The position numbers were made by a program, and so were the translations under genes. Positions 777-50,589 of a DNA stretch of 64,000 nucleotides are shown here, piece by piece. The notes below the pieces were generated by a model. That model did not search any database and was not told the origin of the DNA. It saw nothing but the letters and a program-made list of their open reading frames with translations. Numbering within the stretch: the stretch's first letter is position 1; each line of letters starts with the position of its first letter. Location of the stretch: NCBI GenBank assembly GCA_038046645.1, contig JBBSVU010000006.1, forward strand, positions 10,304-74,303, written 5' to 3'. Origin of the DNA: an archaeon (lineage in GTDB: Archaea; Iainarchaeota; Iainarchaeia; Iainarchaeales; 0-14-0-20-34-12).

Positions 777-1400
777 TCATTTATTCTTAGTTTTGGGGTA
801 TTTGCAATATTCTTTAATTCTGCAAATTTCACATTTTGGGTTTATAGGCAAGCAAATATTTTGGCCAAATTTCACGAAAAGATTATTTATATATTTCCAA
901 TATTTATTAGGGACTTTTTGCATTAATTTTTGCTCTGTTTCTTCTGGCTTTTTTGTCTTTACTAACCCCAACCTGTTTGAGATTCTGTGAACATGGGTGT
1001 CAACTGCAATTCCATCCAAATCAAATGCATAAATTCTGACACATTGGGCTGTTTTTCTACCAACCCCAGGGAGGAATAATAAGTCAGCAAGAGTAGAAGG
1101 GACTTTTCCATGCCAATTATCTAATAAAATGCGGCTTAATTGTTTAATTCTAGCAGCTTTAACTTTATAAAATCCAACTTTCTTTATCAATTTTTTTATG
1201 TTTTTTAAATCAGCCCCTGCCAATTTTTCCGCTGTTGGATATTTCTCAAACAAAGAATCTGCGGCCTTTTTTGTTGTTTCATCCCTTGTCCTTGCACTTA
1301 GAACAGTCGAAACCAGAACCTTAAAATCAGAATTATATTTGAGTATTGGTTTGCTGAATTTATGTTTTTGTAATTCTTCAAAAATCCTTAAAAATTGCAT
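777..1400 (-). CDS. nth: Endonuclease III (HhH-GPD DNA glycosylase/AP lyase)
   Basis: HhH-GPD motif LPGVGRKTAQCV. C-terminal 4Fe-4S ligands C-x6-C-x2-C-x5-C (CLPINPKCEICRIKEYC). Confidence 0.85.
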   Translation of the reverse strand: MQFLRIFEELQKHKFSKPILKYNSDFKVLVSTVLSARTRDETTKKAADSLFEKYPTAEKLAGADLKNIKKLIKKVGFYKVKAARIKQLSRILLDNWHGKVPSTLADLLFLPGVGRKTAQCVRIYAFDLDGIAVDTHVHRISNRLGLVKTKKPEETEQKLMQKVPNKYWKYINNLFVKFGQNICLPINPKCEICRIKEYCKYPKTKNK

Positions 1401-1404
1401 TAAA

Positions 1405-2619
1405 TCACTTTTTCGGGCAGAGAATGGTTTTTGTGAATTCTTCAGGCACTGCCTCTTTGCAGACTGTTTGGATATCTTTCTTTGTTTTTAGTGTGGCTAA
1501 GGCCAAAAAATCCTCAAACTGCCTAAATCCAAAAGTGTCAGCAAATATATTCTGCTCAGCCATCACTAAGGGGTCTTCTCTAGCTATAAGTTGTTTCCCT
1601 TTGAAATACGCCCTTGCACGAGCTAATTGTTTGTCGGTAATACTGCCGTTCTTCAAATTATTGAATTCTTGCTCTATTAGATGGATTGCTTTCAAATAAT
1701 TTTTAGGGTTTGTTGCTAGATATACACAAAAAAAAGCGTGATTTTTATCCCCATCTACAAAGCTGTGCACATCATAGCAAAGCCCCCTTTTTTCCCTTAA
1801 TTCTTGAAAAAGCACTGAACTTAATCCTTCACCTAACATCGCACTTAATAAGTTAAAAACAGCTAATTGATTATTATCCTTTGATGAAAATGGAAAACCC
1901 ATGCAAACATGGGTCTGCTCCAAATCCTTAAGCAACATGCTTTCCCTTGGTTTCCAGCTAGAAAGATTAAACTTTTTCATCCCTGCTGGTTGCTTGCGTT
2001 TTTTTAAATCTGGAAGCCTTCTTTCCACTGAATCCAGTATCCTCCTTGCGGGAATCGACGTATTTATGCTAAAGCAAAAATTATTAGGGGAATAACATTC
2101 TTTAAAATATCTTTCAATATCCTTCTTTTTAATTGAAGAAACACTCTTTTCAGTTCCAGCTGTTTCAAAACCTAATGGGTGTTTGTGGTATAAATCAGAT
2201 AAAAAATTCTGAAAAACAAATCTTGTGGGATTATCCTTTATTTCAGTAATCTCACTTAAGATTATTTTCCTCTCTGTCTCAATCTCTTTTTTATCAAAAA
2301 CACTATTAAAAAGACAGTCAAATAGGATATCTAAGTTTTTTTCAAAAAAATCAGGCAATCCTTTTACATAGTAAGCCGTAGCTTCTTTTTTTGTATACGC
2401 ATTAGTTATGCTACCTGTCTTTTCAATATTGAAAGAAATCTCTTTACGGGTATGTTTTCTTGTTTTAGTAAAAAGCAGATGCTCAATGAAGTGGGCAACT
2501 CCAGCATATCTTTCTTCTTCCAATGCAGACCCAAAAGGTATATTTGCTAATGTCACTGTGCTGTATTTTGAAGAATCATAAAGTAGCTTAGCCCCAGATT
2601 CTAGCTGAAACACATTCAT
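1405..2619 (-). CDS. M16 family (insulinase/pitrilysin-like) zinc peptidase
   Basis: HxxEH zinc-binding motif (HFIEHLLF). Length and architecture fit the M16 family. Confidence 0.8.
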   Translation of the reverse strand: MNVFQLESGAKLLYDSSKYSTVTLANIPFGSALEEERYAGVAHFIEHLLFTKTRKHTRKEISFNIEKTGSITNAYTKKEATAYYVKGLPDFFEKNLDILFDCLFNSVFDKKEIETERKIILSEITEIKDNPTRFVFQNFLSDLYHKHPLGFETAGTEKSVSSIKKKDIERYFKECYSPNNFCFSINTSIPARRILDSVERRLPDLKKRKQPAGMKKFNLSSWKPRESMLLKDLEQTHVCMGFPFSSKDNNQLAVFNLLSAMLGEGLSSVLFQELREKRGLCYDVHSFVDGDKNHAFFCVYLATNPKNYLKAIHLIEQEFNNLKNGSITDKQLARARAYFKGKQLIAREDPLVMAEQNIFADTFGFRQFEDFLALATLKTKKDIQTVCKEAVPEEFTKTILCPKK

Positions 2620-2637
2620 AAAAACAACTATAGATAA

Positions 2638-2832
2638 TTATGTTTTTTTGTTCCTGTTTCTGCCAAAATTAGCATATTTTCTATACTTTATTTCAGTCCA
2701 AGGTTTTGGCTGTTTTGATCGCATTTTTAATTCTTCAGCCAATAACTTTTTCCTCATATCTTCAGTTACTTGCCCAAATAACAAACCTTTGAAATCAAAG
2801 TCGTCTTTAAATGAGGGATCTTCTCTAGTCAT
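2638..2832 (-). CDS. Small basic hypothetical protein (64 aa)
   Basis: ORF only, directly upstream of and co-oriented with the M16 peptidase gene. No recognisable motif. Confidence 0.3.
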   Translation of the reverse strand: MTREDPSFKDDFDFKGLLFGQVTEDMRKKLLAEELKMRSKQPKPWTEIKYRKYANFGRNRNKKT

Positions 2833-2885
2833 ATAACAGTCTATGCACCAGACTCTTTAAAAAGGTTATTAAAAACAACAGAATT

Positions 2886-3767
2886 ATGCCGCAGGAAAAA
2901 GTTATTGGTAATGACCAAAAAAACCCGGTTATGCAAAACAACAAGGAAGAGTTAATTAAAAAGTTTTCAAATGAGTTAATTGTTGCTGGGTACTCCCCAA
3001 AAACAGTGGTTATGTATTGCGGATATGTTTCTGAATTTTTTAACACACTAAAAAAGCCAATAACTGAATCAACGCATGATGATATAATTGCTTTTTTAGT
3101 AAATAAGAAATCTAAGAACGTAACTAATACTACTTTAGCACTAATCTATTCTGCGTTGAATTTTTTCTTCAAAAATTTCCTAAAAATAAAAATTTTAGAA
3201 GAGATAAAAAGGCCCAAAATAGGGAAAAAGATACCGATAGTTCTCACAAAAAATGAAGTAATCGCATTAATTTCGGCTGCAACAAAAAAAACGGATTCGT
3301 TAATTTTAAGCTTTTTATATTCCAGCGGCTGTAGGGTAAGTGAATGCACAAAATTAAAGGTAAATGACCTTGATATGGATAATTATACTGCAACTGTTTT
3401 TGGGGGCAAAGGAAATAAAGACCGCATCGTGATATTATCAAAAAAATGGGTTGAAGACATAAAACAGTACTTAAAAACAAGAAAATTACTAAGTGAATTT
3501 GTTTTTTGCAATTCATCTGGCAACAAAATATCTGAAGATGTGGTTCAGCGGATAGTAAAAAAATGCGCTAAAAAGGCAAACATAACTAAAGACACAACCC
3601 CGCACACTTTGCGCCACTCTTATGCAACCCATCTTTTGGAAAGTGGGGAAAGCATAAGAAAAATACAAGTTTTGTTGGGCCACTCAAATTTATCGACAAC
3701 CCAAATATATACTAGGGTAAGTACTGATGAGTTAAAAAAAGTAAAAAGCCCCCTTGATTCTTTATGA
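2886..3767 (+). CDS. xerA: Tyrosine recombinase/integrase, archaeal XerA-like
   Basis: C-terminal catalytic box HTLRHSYATHLLESGESIRKIQVLLGHSNLSTTQIYTRV (R-H-R-Y family). 293 aa. Confidence 0.75.
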   Translation: MPQEKVIGNDQKNPVMQNNKEELIKKFSNELIVAGYSPKTVVMYCGYVSEFFNTLKKPITESTHDDIIAFLVNKKSKNVTNTTLALIYSALNFFFKNFLKIKILEEIKRPKIGKKIPIVLTKNEVIALISAATKKTDSLILSFLYSSGCRVSECTKLKVNDLDMDNYTATVFGGKGNKDRIVILSKKWVEDIKQYLKTRKLLSEFVFCNSSGNKISEDVVQRIVKKCAKKANITKDTTPHTLRHSYATHLLESGESIRKIQVLLGHSNLSTTQIYTRVSTDELKKVKSPLDSL

Positions 3768-5765: not shown

Positions 5766-5855
5766 TAGCGGAGGAAGGATTTGAACCTTCGACCTTCGGG
5801 TTTCCAACATTAAAGTTATGAGCCCGACGGGCACTCCTGGCTGCCCTACCCCGCT
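5766..5855 (-). tRNA. Initiator tRNA-Met (anticodon CAT) with ~15-nt intron at canonical 37/38 position
   Basis: Hand-folded cloverleaf with an A1:U72 end pair and three consecutive G:C pairs in the anticodon stem (TCGGG/CCCGA). Loop CTCATAA with a 15-nt insertion. T-arm GAAGG-TTCAAAT-CCTTC. Confidence 0.7.
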
Positions 5856-8783: not shown

Positions 8784-9524
8784 TTATACTTCTTTATATT
8801 CTTCTTCAATTTTTTTAATTATAATTCCCTTTTCAGCAATTTCTAAAGGATGCAGGTCTTCAGAATGTTTTGTTGCCCTCATTTTTCGTATATGCAATGT
8901 TCTGTTGCTTTGGGTGCCTATTCCCATATAATGAAGCACAACAACCCCATCTGCAACATATTCTTCTACCCCATATTTGCCGTATTTATTCTCCCCTTCA
9001 TTTGTTTCAGATATTATAATTGAAGTAGTGCCGCTTCTCATTAACATATAACTTATTTTCAAAACCGCCTTTCGTATTTCTTCCTCAGCCCCCAAGTTAA
9101 ATCCTAATGCTGCAATTGAATCAATTACGACCCTTTTTGCCCCAATCCTTTTTATATTCCTAATAATCTCCAAAAGCAATTTATCCACATCAAGACCTGA
9201 AGAAGGTAGAGAATATTCCTCTTCAGAAGGCATGCCCAATCTAGCTAATGAACCATCAATAATTGCTATTTTGTTTGCCCTTTCCAATTCTCTTAAATCC
9301 CATTTAAACCTTAAACAGTCTTCTCTTATAAGTTCAGGCCTCTCATCTAAACTAATATAAATCCCAGGTTCATTGAATTTTGTCGCCCCATTATAAATGA
9401 ATTGCATTGAAAATATTGTTTTCCCAGTTCCACAACCGCCACTTACTAAGAAGCACCTTCCTTTAGGTAACCCCCCTTCTACAAGGTCATCAAATCCAAC
9501 AATGCCTGTTTTTATCCTATCCAT
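8784..9524 (-). CDS. KaiC-like RecA-superfamily ATPase (single KaiC domain)
   Basis: GFDDLVEGGLPKG followed by the Walker A motif GGCGTGKT. 246 aa. Confidence 0.7.
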   Translation of the reverse strand: MDRIKTGIVGFDDLVEGGLPKGRCFLVSGGCGTGKTIFSMQFIYNGATKFNEPGIYISLDERPELIREDCLRFKWDLRELERANKIAIIDGSLARLGMPSEEEYSLPSSGLDVDKLLLEIIRNIKRIGAKRVVIDSIAALGFNLGAEEEIRKAVLKISYMLMRSGTTSIIISETNEGENKYGKYGVEEYVADGVVVLHYMGIGTQSNRTLHIRKMRATKHSEDLHPLEIAEKGIIIKKIEEEYKEV

Positions 9525-9560
9525 ATTGCCAGTCCCCTCTCATATTATACTTTTCTTCTA

Positions 9561-11429
9561 TTAAATTCTTTCTGCCTGCTTAACTATTGGTATTCTATTT
9601 ATGTCTGATAAAATCTGTTTTAGTTGGTCGCTTTTTGGCATATCTAGTTCTAATTCTATTTTAACGAGGTTTCCACTCTCATAATTTGCTTTTGTCGTTT
9701 TTACTAAAGATTTGTTGCGCTCAATTATTTTTAGTATGTCTGGGAGAAGATGAGGATAATCTACTGCAGTTAATGCAATCTTAGTGGAATATGTCTTTTC
9801 TTTCAAGCCCCCGAGCAAAAAGGGAGCTAATTTACTAATATCGCTTTTTATCCCTGTACAGTCTTTTCTATGTATTGTTGCTTTTCTTTTTGTTGTTTTA
9901 TATGAAACAACAATATCCCCCGGCAGTGGGTTACAACATTTTGCCAGCCTTATTTTTTCATATGGGTTTAAGATTTTCATTTTATCTTCTTTTTGTTTTA
10001 TCCCACCTAAAGACATGCCTAATTTTTTCCTGATTTTCATCCTTGCTCTATCCGTTTTTACAAAGTTTATCCATTGTTTTTTTATTTCATCCTTTTCCCC
10101 CTTTAATATTTCTACTGCATCCCCATTTACTAGCTCATAATCCAAGCCAACAGGTTTTTTATTTACTAGCACTTTTTTGCATTTGCTCCCTAAATCAGTG
10201 TGTATTTCAAAAGCAAAATCTAAAGCAGTACTGCCTGCCGGCAAAAGTACAACATCATTCTTTGGGGTAACAACAAATATTTTATTAGTCCCAAATTCAA
10301 TCTTTAATGATTCAAGCATGTTGCTTTTTGCCTTCCAATTCATTATTTGTTTTGCTAAAATAAGTTTTTTGTCAAAGAAAGGGTCTCTCCAGAATTTTTT
10401 ATACTGCCAGTGTGCGGCAAGCCCATCTTCAGCATCTTGGTGCATATCATAAGTCCTTATTTGTATTTCTACTTTATTTTTTCCCCAGCCTATTACTGTG
10501 TGAATGGACCGATACCTATTTGATTTTGGGTGTGCAATATAATCATCAAAATGTGGAAATTGGTTATATGCCCCATGAATTATCCCTAATATTGTGTAGC
10601 ACTCCTCTACGCTATTGCATATCACCCTTATGCCTAGTAAATCTGCCAAGTCAGAGACCTTTTTCCCTTGTGATTGTGTTTTTTTGAAGATGCTATAAAA
10701 GCTTTTAGGCCTTCCATAAATAGTTGCTTCAATACCCTGCTGTTTTAATTTTTCATTCAAATCTACAATTATTTCCTTTATTACCTTCTCTCTTTTTTCC
10801 CGCGTTTCCACAATTTCTTTTTTAATTGAGTAATATGCTTCGGGATTTAATATTTTGAAGCTTAAATCCCTAAGCTCCCAAGATATTTCATATAACCCTA
10901 ATTTATGCGCAATTGGGGCGTATACCTCTTCAGTCAGTTTTGCTAATTCATAAGTTTTTTGCTTTGGCATGTTTTGGGTATTCCTTAGATTATCTAAAGC
11001 CCCCGCGATTTCAACAAAAATAGTCCTGATGTCATTTGCAAGTATTAATATAATTAATCGTAGTTTGTCATTATTTAGTTTCCCAAAGTTTCTCCCGATT
11101 ACTTCGCTTATCTTTGCAGCTTCTTCAGAGATATTTGCTGCGTCTTTACCAACTAAATTTTCTAATGTTTTTTTCTGGTCAAGGTTGTTGTCCAAGAAAT
11201 CATGAGTTAATCCTGCACATATTGTCGTAAAATCCATATGTTGCTCGGCTAAACTAGTTGATACATTCAATAAATGTGAAATAAATGGCTTTCCAGATTC
11301 ACGTTTCTTTTCAGCATATTGTTTGTTTATAAAATCAAACGTCTTTTTAAGTAGTTCTGCATCGTATTCTGAATTGTATTTCCCCAGCTCTAGCTTTAGG
11401 TCTTCAAATGATGCATCAACATATCTCAT
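9561..11429 (-). CDS. Long RelA/SpoT homologue (RSH): HD hydrolase + (p)ppGpp synthetase + TGS + CC + ACT domains
   Basis: HD domain (ISHLLNV...LTHD). Synthetase motifs GRPKSFYSIFKK, DLLGIRVICNS, YIAHPKSNRYRSIHTVI, EIQIRTYDMHQDAEDGLAAHWQYK. TGS box KIFVVTPKNDVVLLPAGSTALDFAFEIHTDLG. KCCNPLPGD. Confidence 0.8.
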   Translation of the reverse strand: MRYVDASFEDLKLELGKYNSEYDAELLKKTFDFINKQYAEKKRESGKPFISHLLNVSTSLAEQHMDFTTICAGLTHDFLDNNLDQKKTLENLVGKDAANISEEAAKISEVIGRNFGKLNNDKLRLIILILANDIRTIFVEIAGALDNLRNTQNMPKQKTYELAKLTEEVYAPIAHKLGLYEISWELRDLSFKILNPEAYYSIKKEIVETREKREKVIKEIIVDLNEKLKQQGIEATIYGRPKSFYSIFKKTQSQGKKVSDLADLLGIRVICNSVEECYTILGIIHGAYNQFPHFDDYIAHPKSNRYRSIHTVIGWGKNKVEIQIRTYDMHQDAEDGLAAHWQYKKFWRDPFFDKKLILAKQIMNWKAKSNMLESLKIEFGTNKIFVVTPKNDVVLLPAGSTALDFAFEIHTDLGSKCKKVLVNKKPVGLDYELVNGDAVEILKGEKDEIKKQWINFVKTDRARMKIRKKLGMSLGGIKQKEDKMKILNPYEKIRLAKCCNPLPGDIVVSYKTTKRKATIHRKDCTGIKSDISKLAPFLLGGLKEKTYSTKIALTAVDYPHLLPDILKIIERNKSLVKTTKANYESGNLVKIELELDMPKSDQLKQILSDINRIPIVKQAERI

Positions 11430-11503
11430 AAATAACTTAAATCACCTCTCTTTAAATCCTTTTTCGCCTTCATAATTAAATACTTTTTGTTGGTTATTCT
11501 TTT

Positions 11504-13437: not shown

Positions 13438-13718
13438 ATTGCATTGAAATGGGCATCTAAAGATCGAAGATGTTAAGCGAGGCAAATTTAGCCTATTAAA
13501 TTGCTTAATTCCGTACTCCGATAGCACCCAAAGCATAGACTACCGTTGCTTTCTTCCGAACCTGGCGGGGTTCTTCTATGTAAAGGGCCTATTGGAACAG
13601 AATATCATTGCAATATAACAGATTTGCATTGCAAAACAAATCCTTTCTTTAGCATTCAGCCCCAGCGTATAGCGGATTTCTGGTTACAAGGAACCGCTAA
13701 CTCCCCAGCCTAGCCCAA
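13430..13718 (-). ncRNA. Signal recognition particle RNA (7S/SRP RNA)
   Basis: Lies in a 360-bp ORF-free gap. The RNA-sense strand begins GGGCUAGGCUGGGGAGUUAGCGGUUCCUUGUAACCAGAAAUCCGCUAUACGCUGGGGCUGAA, an Alu-domain consensus with CUGUAACC. It contains the helix-8 SRP54-binding hairpin CCAGGUUCGGAAGAAAGCAACGGUAG with a GGAA tetraloop. A TATA box TTTATAAAA lies about 25 nt upstream of the 5' G. The 3' end is approximate. Confidence 0.6.
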
Positions 13719-13796
13719 ATATTTTTCGTTAATTGTTTTTATAAAGCAGATTGTTGTCGGCAAACTGTTTTAATTAATTGCTGATAATGTATATTT

Positions 13797-40870: not shown

Positions 40871-41028
40871 TGCAGCCGACGGGATTCGAACCCGTGTCAA
40901 GACCTATCCTCATTTTTTAAATATCCAAAATTCTTTTCTTTGGATAATACCTAGACTTTCTTTTCTTTCTAAGAAAAGAAAGGCTTGGTTTTGGAAGGGT
41001 CTGATGCTAACCACTACACAACGGCTGC
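40871..41028 (-). tRNA. tRNA-Gly (TCC) with ~85-nt intron in the anticodon loop
   Basis: Exons fold into a cloverleaf: acceptor GCAGCCG/CGGCTGC, anticodon arm AGACC-CTTCCAA-GGTCT, T-arm ACGGG-TTCGAAT-CCCGT. The intron forms a long hairpin. Confidence 0.65.
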
Positions 41029-50486: not shown

Positions 50487-50589
50487 CGAGCCCGCTGGGA
50501 TTCGAACCCAGGACACCCAGATTAAGAGTTTCACCTCATGTTATAATCAAATAACAGAACTGGTGCTCTGCCAACTGAGCTACGGGCCC
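50487..50589 (-). tRNA. tRNA-Lys (CTT) with 30-nt intron at a non-canonical position (within the 5' strand of the anticodon stem, ~30/31)
   Basis: The exons reproduce the tRNA-Lys(TTT) body exactly (GGGCCCGTAGCTCAGTTGGCAGAGCAC...). Anticodon arm CCAG|intron|A-CTCTTAA-TCTGG. Confidence 0.7.

What the first reader, a model, noticed from the sequence alone, without database searches (positions are those of the whole stretch)
8784..11429. Full-length bacterial-type RelA/SpoT homologue in an archaeon, co-oriented with a KaiC-like ATPase
- Long RSH proteins (HD hydrolase + synthetase + TGS + CC + ACT) are rare in archaea. They are generally attributed to horizontal acquisition from bacteria.
- This 622-aa ORF has every domain in canonical order, with recognisable synthetase motifs (GRPKSFYSIF, YIAHPKSNRYRSIH, EIQIRTYDMH).
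- It is 36 bp upstream of a single-domain KaiC-like ATPase on the same strand, which suggests an alarmone/ATPase signalling pair.
- In the HD domain, the usual RLHN-type His appears replaced (ALDNLRN). Hydrolase competence is therefore uncertain.
Basis: partly seen in the sequence, partly recalled or inferred. Interest (0 to 1): 0.55.

Follow-up and report, generated by a model that had tools for sequence, protein, structure and literature searches.

The report
Synthetase-only archaeal RelA/SpoT enzyme with KaiC partner
A tiny DPANN archaeon carries a trimmed relative of the bacterial starvation-alarm enzyme RelA/SpoT that keeps the alarm-making site, has lost the alarm-breaking site and one ribosome-contact domain, and stays next to a KaiC-type ATPase gene across its relatives, which hints at an unstudied alarmone pathway in archaea.

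Summary
A 622-aa RelA/SpoT homologue (9561-11429, minus strand) lies 36 bp upstream of a 246-aa single-domain KaiC-family ATPase (8784-9524, minus strand) in an archaeal (Diapherotrites/Iainarchaeota-like) window.

The interpretation needs amending.
- The gene is not a stray bacterial-type gene. It belongs to a deep, archaeal-only clade (bootstrap 197/200) of about 600-640-aa proteins.
- The clade shares one clean deletion of the roughly 100-aa alpha-helical (AH) domain.
- In 65 clade members every synthetase catalytic residue and the zinc-finger Cys/His are 100% conserved. The hydrolase catalytic residues are eroded (metal-binding Asp kept in 4 of 65, against 86 of 87 bacteria). It is therefore most likely a synthetase-only alarmone enzyme.
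- RelA/SpoT in DPANN is already reported (69% of Diapherotrites genomes; Li et al. 2021), so presence alone is not new.

What appears undescribed is this anatomy and the KaiC coupling.
- 8 of 8 RSH-anchored loci have KaiC immediately downstream.
- 23 of 23 well-covered KaiC-anchored loci have the RSH within a few kb, through inversions and insertions.
- The two proteins co-diverge (r = 0.80).
- 0 of 78 bacterial Rel loci, and 0 of 3 loci with AH-less RSHs that keep an intact hydrolase, have a KaiC.

The functional link and the product, (p)ppGpp, are inferred and not shown.

The parts
9561..11429 (-). RSH gene, 622 aa: pseudo-hydrolase, synthetase, TGS, short linker (no AH domain), ZFD/RIS, ACT
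   Evidence: ORF. Pfam. NCBIfam TIGR00691 scores 499.0 bits against a cut-off of 499.2. PDB hits to Rel/RelA at 1e-98 to 1e-91. AF2 model has pLDDT 82.5 and Foldseek top hits are RelA, SpoT and Rel.
10893..11336 (-). HD_4 domain (aa 32-179) with eroded catalytic set: H52, H76 and D77 are kept, ED has become D80-N81, and the metal-binding Asp has become G143. Predicted pseudo-hydrolase.
   Evidence: Alignment to Rel structures. Clade alignment and census. Mean pairwise identity of this domain is 0.27 in archaea against 0.58 in bacteria. The domain still folds, with pLDDT about 90.
10395..10715 (-). Synthetase domain (aa 239-345) with all catalytic and substrate residues kept (R240, K242, K250, D263, R268, D296, K302, N304, Y306, H310, E321, Q323). 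The bacterial RFKD motif is replaced by HFDD.
   Evidence: Ten catalytic positions are 65/65 conserved in the archaeal clade and 87/87 in bacteria, except H310 at 86/87 in bacteria. Motif alignment.
10101..10280 (-). TGS domain (aa 384-443)
   Evidence: Pfam 4.5e-18. Mean pairwise identity 0.57 in the clade, similar to 0.64 in bacteria.
9954..10025 (-). Short linker (aa about 469-492) at the position where bacterial long RSHs carry the roughly 100-aa alpha-helical (AH) domain
   Evidence: A single clean gap shared by the whole clade. Linker median 26 aa against 115 aa. No PF19296 hit in any clade member, but present in the bacterial hits. The AF2 model shows one short helix (460-470) and low confidence at 475-490.
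9840..9953 (-). Cys-rich zinc-finger / ribosome-intersubunit domain (aa 493-530) with C498, C499, H520 and C524
   Evidence: All four residues are 65/65 and 87/87 conserved. Precomputed PF28438 RelA_RIS hit.
9567..9800 (-). ACT/RRM domain (aa 544-621)
   Evidence: Pfam ACT_4 1.8e-10. A beta-alpha-beta-beta-alpha-beta fold in the model.
9525..9560 (-). 36-bp spacer with a GAGGGG Shine-Dalgarno-like motif about 10 nt before the KaiC ATG and no terminator-like hairpin
   Evidence: Sequence. Terminator scan. Co-transcription is inferred, not shown.
8784..9524 (-). Single-domain KaiC-family ATPase, 246 aa. Walker A is GGCGTGKT (aa 28-36). D60-E61 sit at the position of the KaiC-CI catalytic EE. Walker B is VVIDS (132-136). 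R216 sits at the Arg-finger position.
   Evidence: Pfam PF06745 1.2e-73. Closest structures are the KaiC CI half and P. horikoshii PH0186, 2zts, at 5.8e-61. The orthologue group is 65-91% identical with these residues invariant.
11430..11503 (.). 74-bp divergent intergenic region between RSH and the triosephosphate isomerase gene, with GAGAGGTGAT before the RSH ATG and AT-rich TATA-like boxes
   Evidence: Sequence. The TIM-RSH divergent arrangement is conserved in 7 of 8 RSH-anchored loci.

Best explanation
The 622-aa ORF is a member of an archaeal (DPANN) subfamily of long RelA/SpoT homologues.

Enzyme: the synthetase domain is catalytically intact and most likely transfers pyrophosphate from ATP to GDP/GTP to make (p)ppGpp (inferred from conserved residues). 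The N-terminal HD domain has lost its hydrolase active site and survives as a folded pseudo-hydrolase, as in E. coli RelA but independently of it.

Regulatory half: TGS, the zinc-finger/RIS domain and ACT are kept, but the alpha-helical domain is gone. That domain links TGS to RIS in ribosome-bound bacterial RelA (my recollection of the 2016 cryo-EM papers). Bacterial-style docking on a stalled ribosome is therefore unlikely to be preserved unchanged (inferred).

History: the gene was acquired once, long ago, presumably from bacteria, and has since been inherited vertically.

Partner: the gene is genetically coupled to a highly conserved, apparently active single-domain KaiC-family ATPase, probably co-transcribed with it in this genome. 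I propose that the ATPase is the trans-acting partner of the enzyme, either a nucleotide/energy-state sensor that gates the synthetase or the first effector of the alarmone (inferred; direction unknown).

Removal of the alarmone must rely on another enzyme, because no second RSH-type hydrolase lies within the 64-kb window.
For: - Domains and homology.
- Synthetase intact: ten catalytic positions are 65/65 conserved in the clade and invariant in A1.
- Hydrolase eroded. Window protein: ED -> DN and metal-binding Asp -> Gly. Clade: D144-equivalent kept in 4/65, D78-equivalent in 17/65 and the ED pair almost never, while 86/87 bacteria keep all of them.
- Relaxation is specific to the HD domain. 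Identity is 0.27 in archaea against 0.58 in bacteria, while SYN, TGS and ZFD are about as conserved as in bacteria.
- AH deletion.
- Single archaeal clan at 197/200 bootstrap. At least 45 clusters at 50% identity. Host-like GC. Conserved synteny.
- Coupling to KaiC:
  - 8/8 RSH-anchored loci have KaiC 36-86 bp downstream on the same strand, including a Micrarchaeota locus with otherwise different neighbours.
  - Of 80 KaiC-anchored metagenomic loci, 56 show the RSH. All 23 with at least 6 kb upstream and at least 4 kb downstream have it. 32 are directly adjacent, with a median gap of 73.5 bp.
  - The pair survives an inversion to convergent orientation and insertion of CARDB/ABC or transposase-like genes.
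  - RSH and KaiC distances correlate at r = 0.80, Mantel 0/2000, n = 42.
  - 0/78 bacterial Rel loci have a KaiC within 10 kb.
  - 0/3 loci of AH-less RSHs with an intact hydrolase have one.
- KaiC catalytic motifs are invariant.
- No terminator in the spacer.
Against: - Nothing biochemical is shown. [quoted passage not shown]
- The window protein keeps H52, H76-D77 and N147, and has an Asp three residues after the lost metal-binding Asp. Residual or altered hydrolase activity cannot be excluded from sequence alone.
- RSH and KaiC sit inside a larger conserved block (CBS-TIM <> RSH-KaiC .. SerRS <> Trm56-TFE). Part of the adjacency and the co-divergence is what any two vertically inherited neighbours would show.
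- Insertions of 1-5 kb, and a transposase-like gene in the closest sequenced relative, show that co-transcription is not obligatory.
- KaiC is far more conserved than the RSH (p-distance 0.28 against 0.62) and its family exists in archaea without RSH (PH0186 of Pyrococcus), so it may have a job of its own.
- No gene fusion of the two was seen.
- The trees are neighbour-joining only.
Confidence: 0.6

Rival explanations
1. The adjacency to KaiC is retained synteny only. The RSH was inserted long ago next to a housekeeping KaiC-like ATPase in a slowly rearranging block, and the two proteins do unrelated jobs.
For: A wider block of unrelated housekeeping genes (CBS, TIM, SerRS, Trm56, TFE) is conserved around them. 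Unrelated cassettes and a transposase-like gene can sit between them. KaiC evolves much more slowly than the RSH. The KaiC family occurs in RSH-free archaea such as Pyrococcus.
Against: The pair outlasts the rest of the block: in L085, L152, L157 and L158 none of the other block genes is present, and the L127-type loci are inverted. 23/23 well-covered KaiC loci keep the RSH within a few kb. Same strand with a median 73.5-bp spacer in 32 loci. The sister AH-less RSHs with an intact hydrolase lack the KaiC neighbour.
Confidence: 0.28
2. The enzyme is still bifunctional: a divergent HD pocket hydrolyses (p)ppGpp with a non-canonical residue set (for example D146 replacing the lost metal ligand).
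For: The window protein and its closest relatives (P0002, P0005-P0007) keep H52, H76-D77 and N147, and share a conserved LDNLR motif. The domain folds with high confidence.
Against: The positions equivalent to E81, D82 and D144 of RelSeq are changed in the window protein. Across the clade no hydrolase position is conserved and the domain is selectively relaxed (0.27 against 0.58). That pattern fits loss of catalysis, not a new conserved active site.
Confidence: 0.08
3. The synthetase fold is used for something other than (p)ppGpp, for example (p)ppApp synthesis or pyrophosphorylation of tRNA 3' ends as in CapRel/FaRel2-type toxic small alarmone synthetases, with TGS presenting the tRNA.
For: The fold search also retrieves the tRNA pyrophosphokinase CapRel at low rank. 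PADLOC gives domain-level homology to a SAS-like defence candidate. The RFKD motif is altered. No partner hydrolase is visible in the window.
Against: The guanine-nucleotide contacts typical of long RSHs (K302, N304, Y306, H310) are conserved as in bacterial Rel. The best sequence and fold matches by far are Rel, RelA and SpoT. The chromosomal housekeeping context and vertical descent argue against a toxin or defence role.
Confidence: 0.05
4. The gene is a recent bacterial transfer or a binning/assembly contaminant in an archaeal MAG.
For: Long RSHs were reported as absent from archaea in the 2011 census (PMC3153485). The closest non-clade hits are Firmicutes Rel proteins at about 41-43% identity.
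Against: It is flanked on both sides by archaeal genes on one contig. GC matches the host. It belongs to an archaeal-only clade with 197/200 support and deep internal divergence. The same synteny appears in dozens of independent metagenomes.
Confidence: 0.01

Closest known systems
E. coli RelA (long RSH, [hS] type; PDB 5iqr, 5kpv)
   Same: Multi-domain long RSH with an active synthetase and a degenerate, non-catalytic HD domain. An acidic xFDD motif stands in place of the RFKD of bifunctional Rel. TGS, the Cys-rich RIS/ZFD and ACT are present. It is the top Foldseek hit and a strong sequence hit at 9.6e-91.
   Different: The hydrolase was lost independently: the archaeal sequences form their own clan, and their best sequence matches are Rel-type proteins. 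The AH domain is absent. The protein is about 120 aa shorter. The host has an archaeal ribosome. A KaiC-family gene is genetically coupled, which was not seen in any of 78 bacterial loci.
Bifunctional Rel of Firmicutes, Actinobacteria and Thermus (PDB 6yxa, 1vj7, 6s2t, 8fr8)
   Same: Closest by sequence (E 1e-98 to 1e-93; 41-43% identity over the N-terminal about 470 aa). Same order of shared domains and identical synthetase catalytic residues.
   Different: Rel keeps H53, H77, D78, E81, D82, D144 and N148 (86/87 in my sample) and the RFKD motif. The archaeal clade does not. Rel has the AH domain.
AH-less archaeal/uncultured RSHs with an intact hydrolase (P0108, P0278, P0363; 636-651 aa)
   Same: They share the AH deletion and group with the window's clade (P0108 is sister at 191/200). 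P0278 is in a clearly archaeal context with TFS, Orc1/Cdc6 and uS2.
   Different: All seven hydrolase positions are canonical and the motif is mostly R/K/HxKD. No KaiC neighbour in the three loci examined. One locus carries a separate small alarmone synthetase.
KaiC CI domain and single-domain archaeal KaiC-like ATPases (P. horikoshii PH0186, PDB 2zts; PH0284, 2dr3)
   Same: The partner protein aligns end to end with PH0186 (209 bits) and with the CI half of cyanobacterial KaiC (167 bits), with Walker A/B, the catalytic acidic pair and the Arg finger conserved.
   Different: It has a single domain, so it lacks the CII half that carries the clock phosphorylation sites. No KaiA or KaiB is present. 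It scores below the NCBIfam equivalog cut-offs (188 against 307 for TIGR03877). Its function is unknown, and PH0186 itself has no assigned function.
Trans-acting protein regulators of Rel (e.g. B. subtilis DarB-Rel complex, PDB 8acu)
   Same: A precedent that a long RSH can be switched by a separate small protein binding its catalytic half instead of by the ribosome (the entry was retrieved). This is the kind of role I propose for KaiC.
   Different: DarB is a CBS-domain c-di-AMP receptor unrelated to KaiC. No interaction between the archaeal proteins has been shown.

Membership tests
RelA/SpoT homologue superfamily, long RSH class | RelA_SpoT synthetase domain with catalytic residues | tested here: met
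   PF04607 at 124.8 bits against a cut-off of 27. R240, K242, D263, R268, Y306, H310, E321 and Q323 are all present and invariant in the clade.
RelA/SpoT homologue superfamily, long RSH class | N-terminal HD_4 domain (fold) | tested here: met
   PF13328 at 82.3 bits against a cut-off of 27.2. Helical bundle modelled at pLDDT about 90.
RelA/SpoT homologue superfamily, long RSH class | C-terminal regulatory region: TGS, AH, RIS/ZFD (conserved Cys), ACT/RRM | tested here: inconclusive
   TGS, ZFD (C498, C499, H520, C524) and ACT are present. The AH domain is absent. So four of five regulatory elements are present.
RelA/SpoT homologue superfamily, long RSH class | Passes the NCBIfam TIGR00691 (spoT_relA) curated cut-off | tested here: not met
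   499.0 bits against a cut-off of 499.2, missed by 0.2 bits. This is consistent with NCBI naming it only 'HD domain-containing protein'.
Bifunctional Rel/SpoT ([HS]) | Complete hydrolase catalytic set (RelSeq numbering H53, H77, D78, E81, D82, D144, N148) | tested here: not met
   The window protein has H, H, D, D, N, G, N, which is 4 of 7. Clade-wide erosion against 86/87 conservation in bacteria.
Bifunctional Rel/SpoT ([HS]) | RxKD motif in the synthetase domain | tested here: not met
   HFDD in the window protein. The clade has mostly [EKAQH]F[D]D. Bacteria have R at the first position in 79/87 and K at the third in 77/87.
RelA sensu stricto (beta/gamma-proteobacterial [hS] paralogue) | Descent from the RelA/SpoT duplication | tested here: inconclusive
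   The archaeal sequences form a separate clan (197/200) and match Rel better than E. coli RelA (334 and 317 bits against 308). No proteobacterial RelA was included in the tree.
RelA sensu stricto (beta/gamma-proteobacterial [hS] paralogue) | Activation on the ribosome by deacylated A-site tRNA | not testable with these tools
   Needs biochemistry. Absence of the AH domain makes identical docking doubtful (inference).
Circadian KaiC | Tandem CI-CII double domain with CII Ser/Thr autophosphorylation sites | tested here: not met
   246 aa with a single RecA-like domain. Both halves of KaiC align to the same single domain. NF006799 scores 201 bits against a cut-off of 408.
Circadian KaiC | KaiB (and KaiA) partners encoded nearby | not tested
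   None of the called neighbours in the window or in 8 related loci carries a KaiA or KaiB Pfam hit. No dedicated search was made.
Archaeal single-domain KaiC-like ATPases (PH0186 / TIGR03877 type) | Single KaiC-family P-loop domain with Walker A/B and a catalytic acidic pair | tested here: met
   PF06745 at 247.7 bits. 2zts at 209 bits over residues 3-238. Motifs are invariant in 40 orthologues.
Archaeal single-domain KaiC-like ATPases (PH0186 / TIGR03877 type) | Passes the equivalog cut-off of TIGR03877, TIGR03880, TIGR03881 or ArlH | tested here: not met
   188.2 against 307, 135.9 against 249, 131.9 against 248 and 37.6 against 215. It is a distinct orthologue group and not the archaellum protein ArlH.
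Anti-phage defence / toxic SAS systems | Match to a known defence-system model, or a mobile or variable context | tested here: not met
   PADLOC gives only domain-level homology of the SYN domain to PDC-S33, and nothing for KaiC. The context is a conserved housekeeping block.

The most novel reading that the evidence does not exclude
DPANN archaea run a native alarmone pathway built differently from the bacterial stringent response. A synthetase-only RSH has shed the AH domain used in bacterial ribosome docking. It is instead switched by, or signals through, a dedicated hexameric KaiC-family ATPase that reads the cell's nucleotide/energy state. This would be the first (p)ppGpp system of archaea and a new input logic for RSH enzymes.
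Probability: 0.2. Interest if true: 0.85.

Novelty: new variant of a known kind. Interest (0 to 1): 0.6.

Why it matters
(p)ppGpp signalling is regarded as essentially absent from archaea. [quoted passage not shown] The RSH field's reference census found no long RSH in archaea (PMC3153485).

The data here show that one archaeal radiation maintains, under purifying selection on the synthetase, TGS and zinc-finger parts, a distinct long-RSH subfamily. It has an RelA-like loss of the hydrolase, a missing AH domain and a conserved KaiC-family neighbour.

That yields concrete, clonable targets to ask three questions:
- Do archaea make an alarmone?
- How is a long RSH controlled without the bacterial ribosome interface?
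- What do the widespread, functionally orphan single-domain KaiC-like ATPases of archaea do?

It also offers a natural experiment on which RSH domains are needed for what.

Tried and rejected
- **GTDB genome scan.** I used a clade alignment hoping for many archaeal loci, but the patterns chosen (EIQIRTxxMH and a TGS motif) are shared with bacteria. 78 of 80 loci were bacterial. They were reused as a negative control for KaiC adjacency and as the tree outgroup.
- **Biopython NJ with bootstraps** timed out and was replaced by a vectorised NJ. No ML software was available, so the trees are distance-based.
- **Linker-length measure on the representative set** failed because the fast alignment moved the AH block. 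Protein length was used instead.
- **The listing of cluster members** returned no organism names for the intact-hydrolase short forms. Domain of life was inferred from gene context instead.
- **Makarova et al. 2017** on KaiC-like ATPases could not be read because it is not held. I cannot say whether that paper lists an RSH association.
- **Apparent counter-example L087** (closest KaiC, no RSH in 278 nt upstream) turned out to be a transposase-like insertion between the two genes.
- **Defence-system reading** rejected.
- **Recent-transfer or contamination reading** rejected.
- **Search of the window for a second RSH-type hydrolase or synthetase, or a KaiC paralogue,** found none. This covers only 64 kb of the genome.
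- **Sigma-70 promoter scan** is uninformative for an archaeon.


Full report
**1. Observation**

The window contains, on the minus strand, a 622-aa ORF (9561-11429) and, 36 bp downstream, a 246-aa ORF (8784-9524).
- Pfam assigns HD_4, RelA_SpoT, TGS and ACT_4 to the first ORF, all far above their cut-offs, and KaiC (PF06745, E 1.2e-73) to the second.
- The surroundings are archaeal: an archaeal SRP RNA, aTrm56, TFE-alpha and an archaeal-type TIM.
- The identical protein is deposited from an 'archaeon' MAG. An 80%-identical copy lies in Ca. Diapherotrites archaeon CG08_land_8_20_14_0_20_34_12 with the same gene order.
- The gene's GC content (33.8%) equals that of the window (34.7%).

**2. What kind of RSH it is**

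A database search returned about 30 proteins of roughly 606-629 aa from archaeal MAGs (labels: archaeon, Diapherotrites, Micrarchaeota). The list then jumped to about 720-aa Firmicutes Rel proteins at 41-43% identity over only about 72-78% of the query. The short proteins lack the precomputed PF19296 (AH/RIS) and PF01966 (HD) hits that the bacterial ones have.

Alignment shows one clean gap shared by the whole group. It removes the block between the end of TGS and the Cys-rich AKCCNP motif. The linker has a median of 26 residues against 115 in bacteria. In an AlphaFold model (mean pLDDT 82.5) this region is one short helix plus a low-confidence stretch, while the HD, SYN, TGS, ZFD and ACT domains are all well formed. 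The best structural matches are ribosome-bound RelA, full-length SpoT and Rel.

**3. Catalytic sites**

I compared 65 non-identical archaeal-clade sequences (database hits plus ORFs harvested from fetched loci) with 87 bacterial-type ones.

| Feature | Archaeal clade (n = 65) | Bacteria (n = 87) |
|---|---|---|
| Synthetase R240, K242, K250, D263, R268, D296, Y306, E321, Q323 | 65/65 each | 87/87 each |
| Synthetase H310 | 65/65 | 86/87 |
| ZFD C498, C499, H520, C524 | 65/65 | 87/87 |
| D78-equivalent is Asp | 17/65 | 86/87 |
| D144-equivalent (metal ligand) is Asp | 4/65 | 86/87 |
| ED pair | almost never kept | 86/87 |
| R of the RFKD motif | acidic or neutral xF(D)D instead | 79/87 |

The window protein itself reads H, H, D, D, N, G, N at the seven canonical hydrolase positions. 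The His-Asp dyad survives, but the ED pair is DN and the fourth metal ligand is Gly.

Mean pairwise identity by domain:

| Domain | Archaeal clade | Bacteria |
|---|---|---|
| HD | 0.27 | 0.58 |
| SYN | 0.50 | 0.64 |
| TGS | 0.57 | 0.64 |
| ZFD | 0.57 | 0.59 |
| ACT | 0.33 | 0.29 |

This is a selective relaxation of the HD domain. I conclude that the enzyme is a synthetase-only ([hS]) long RSH, analogous to RelA but arising independently. That it makes (p)ppGpp is inferred from the conserved guanine-nucleotide and catalytic residues. It has not been shown.

**4. Evolutionary placement**

- In a neighbour-joining tree (152 sequences, 613 columns) the archaeal sequences form one clan in 197 of 200 bootstraps. 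P0108, an AH-less protein with an intact hydrolase, is their sister in 191 of 200.
- Divergence within the archaeal clan (1.17) exceeds that among the sampled bacterial phyla (0.79).
- An exhaustive profile search of 1.84 billion representatives found, among the best 150, about 45 clusters at 50% identity of the eroded-hydrolase 596-643-aa type. It also found about 15 short forms with an intact hydrolase.
- Eight of those intact forms group with the archaeal clade, though support for the exact membership is weak (57/200). One of them (P0278) sits among TFS, Orc1/Cdc6 and uS2 genes and so is archaeal. The other seven fall among bacteria.

The most economical reading (inference) is one old acquisition of a Rel-type gene by a DPANN ancestor. 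Loss of the AH domain came first, and loss of the hydrolase followed in the lineage that includes the window.

Literature:
- The 2011 RSH census found no long RSH in archaea (PMC3153485).
- A 2021 comparative-genomics paper reports RelA/SpoT in 69.0% of Diapherotrites, 41.7% of Woesearchaeota, 21.3% of Pacearchaeota and 19.0% of Nanoarchaeota genomes, and predicts a bacterial origin. This is a single sentence (PMC8407392).
- Presence is therefore known. I found no description of the domain loss, the dead hydrolase or the KaiC link. One key KaiC paper could not be read.

**5. The KaiC neighbour**

Starting from the RSH, eight of eight loci with readable downstream sequence have a 243-249-aa KaiC-family gene on the same strand 36-86 bp downstream. 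These are the window, a Ca. Iainarchaeum genome and six contigs encoding relatives that are only 36-42% identical. One of them is a Micrarchaeota contig with otherwise different neighbours. None of 78 bacterial Rel loci has a KaiC hit within 10 kb.

Starting from KaiC, the orthologue group is tight (65-91% identity, mean column identity 80%). A metagenome scan returned 80 loci, tallied:

| Arrangement | Loci |
|---|---|
| RSH directly upstream, same strand (gap 43-214 bp, median 73.5) | 32 |
| RSH upstream with a 0.66-1.4-kb insert | 7 |
| RSH upstream with a 4.3-5.7-kb insert | 9 |
| RSH convergent, 1.3-1.6 kb downstream | 8 |
| No RSH seen (all on contigs too short to judge) | 24 |

- All 23 loci with at least 6 kb upstream and at least 4 kb downstream contain the RSH.
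- The inserts are a CARDB-domain surface protein with or without a MacB/FtsX ABC transporter. In the closest sequenced relative the insert is a 181-aa transposase-like ORF.
- RSH and KaiC pairwise distances correlate (Pearson 0.80; Mantel 0 of 2000; n = 42).
- The three loci of intact-hydrolase AH-less RSHs have no KaiC.

The partner resembles the CI half of KaiC and the function-unknown P. horikoshii PH0186. It has Walker A/B, the acidic catalytic pair and the Arg finger, all invariant. It is not ArlH and does not reach any NCBIfam equivalog cut-off.

**6. Caveats on the coupling**

- Both genes lie in a larger conserved block (CBS-TIM <> RSH-KaiC .. SerRS <> Trm56-TFE). Any two vertically inherited neighbours would show some adjacency and co-divergence.
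- Insertions between the genes show that co-transcription is dispensable.
- KaiC evolves much more slowly than the RSH and its family exists in RSH-free archaea.
- In favour of a specific link: the pair persists where the rest of the block is gone or inverted, it shows tight same-strand spacing in most loci, and the linkage is restricted to the hydrolase-dead clade.

I put the functional link at about 0.6-0.7 and any particular mechanism much lower.

**7. Proposed mechanism**

- Shown: the domain content, the residue conservation pattern, the clade structure and the gene linkage.
- Inferred: the protein synthesises (p)ppGpp and cannot degrade it. Without the AH domain, which in bacterial RelA connects TGS to RIS along the A-site tRNA (my recollection of the 2016 cryo-EM papers, not tested here), the bacterial ribosome-docking geometry is unlikely to be kept. 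The KaiC-family ATPase acts in trans, either gating the synthetase according to nucleotide or energy state or acting as the alarmone's receiver. The DarB-Rel complex (PDB 8acu, retrieved) is a precedent for protein-in-trans control of a long RSH.
- Degradation must be done elsewhere. No second RSH-type hydrolase lies in the 64-kb window. NUDIX genes lie a few kb away in two relatives, which is only a lead.

**8. Verdict**

The finding is real and the gene call is right. The 'rare, horizontally acquired, full-length bacterial-type' framing is only partly right.

It is a new variant of a known kind: a DPANN-specific, AH-less, hydrolase-dead long RSH with a conserved KaiC-family partner. Presence of RelA/SpoT in DPANN is already published. 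The anatomy and the coupling appear not to be.

Interest is moderate to high because it makes the question of alarmone signalling in archaea, and the role of orphan KaiC-like ATPases, directly testable with clonable genes.

Noticed in passing
window 40871-41028 (-), 50487-50589 (-), 5766-5855 (-): Rfam tRNA hits of 158, 103 and 90 nt, much longer than a standard tRNA. They are probably intron-containing archaeal tRNAs. ARAGORN misses the first two.
   Followed up: no
window 13447-13720 (-): Archaeal SRP RNA (124.5 bits) between the CBS-domain gene and the malic-enzyme gene. It is useful as a domain-of-life marker for the window.
   Followed up: no
L121 3536-7752; L163 6748-7956; L127 8788-10062; L085 2725-4648: A cassette encoding a CARDB-domain surface protein, with or without a MacB/FtsX-type ABC transporter, recurs at the RSH-KaiC locus. 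It lies between the two genes in several lineages and just upstream of the RSH in the Micrarchaeota contig. Whether it is related to the module or is just a frequent insertion is unknown.
   Followed up: partly
L170 1165-1710 (+): A 181-aa transposase-like ORF is inserted between RSH and KaiC in the strain whose RSH is 100% identical to that of Ca. Diapherotrites CG08_land_8_20_14_0_20_34_12. The pair is therefore split by about 970 bp in the window's closest sequenced relative.
   Followed up: yes
L169 10088-10900 (-): An archaeal contig with an AH-less RSH that keeps its hydrolase also encodes a separate 270-aa single-domain RelA_SpoT protein (a small alarmone synthetase) between two Orc1/Cdc6 genes. 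Some DPANN may therefore carry more than one alarmone enzyme.
   Followed up: no
L083 10399-10603 and L086 11513-11694: A NUDIX hydrolase gene lies about 4 kb downstream of KaiC in two relatives. It is a possible candidate for alarmone removal in genomes whose RSH has lost its hydrolase. It was not tested and is not seen near the pair in the window.
   Followed up: no
L081 8107-8703, L082 8086-8982, L085 10479-11126: LAGLIDADG_3 homing-endonuclease-like ORFs lie just downstream of KaiC in several relatives, at the place where the window has tRNA-Lys and tRNA-Phe genes.
   Followed up: no
window 9561-11429: The protein misses the NCBIfam TIGR00691 (spoT_relA) cut-off by 0.2 bits (499.0 against 499.2). 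This probably explains why public annotation calls it only 'HD domain-containing protein' and why such genes escape keyword-based surveys.
   Followed up: yes
window 777-3767 and L170 7793-10733: By synteny with L170, the window ORFs at 2886-3767 (293 aa), 1405-2619 (404 aa) and 777-1400 (207 aa) correspond to a tyrosine recombinase (Phage_integrase), an M16 peptidase and an HhH-GPD glycosylase. The window ORFs themselves were not scanned.
   Followed up: partly
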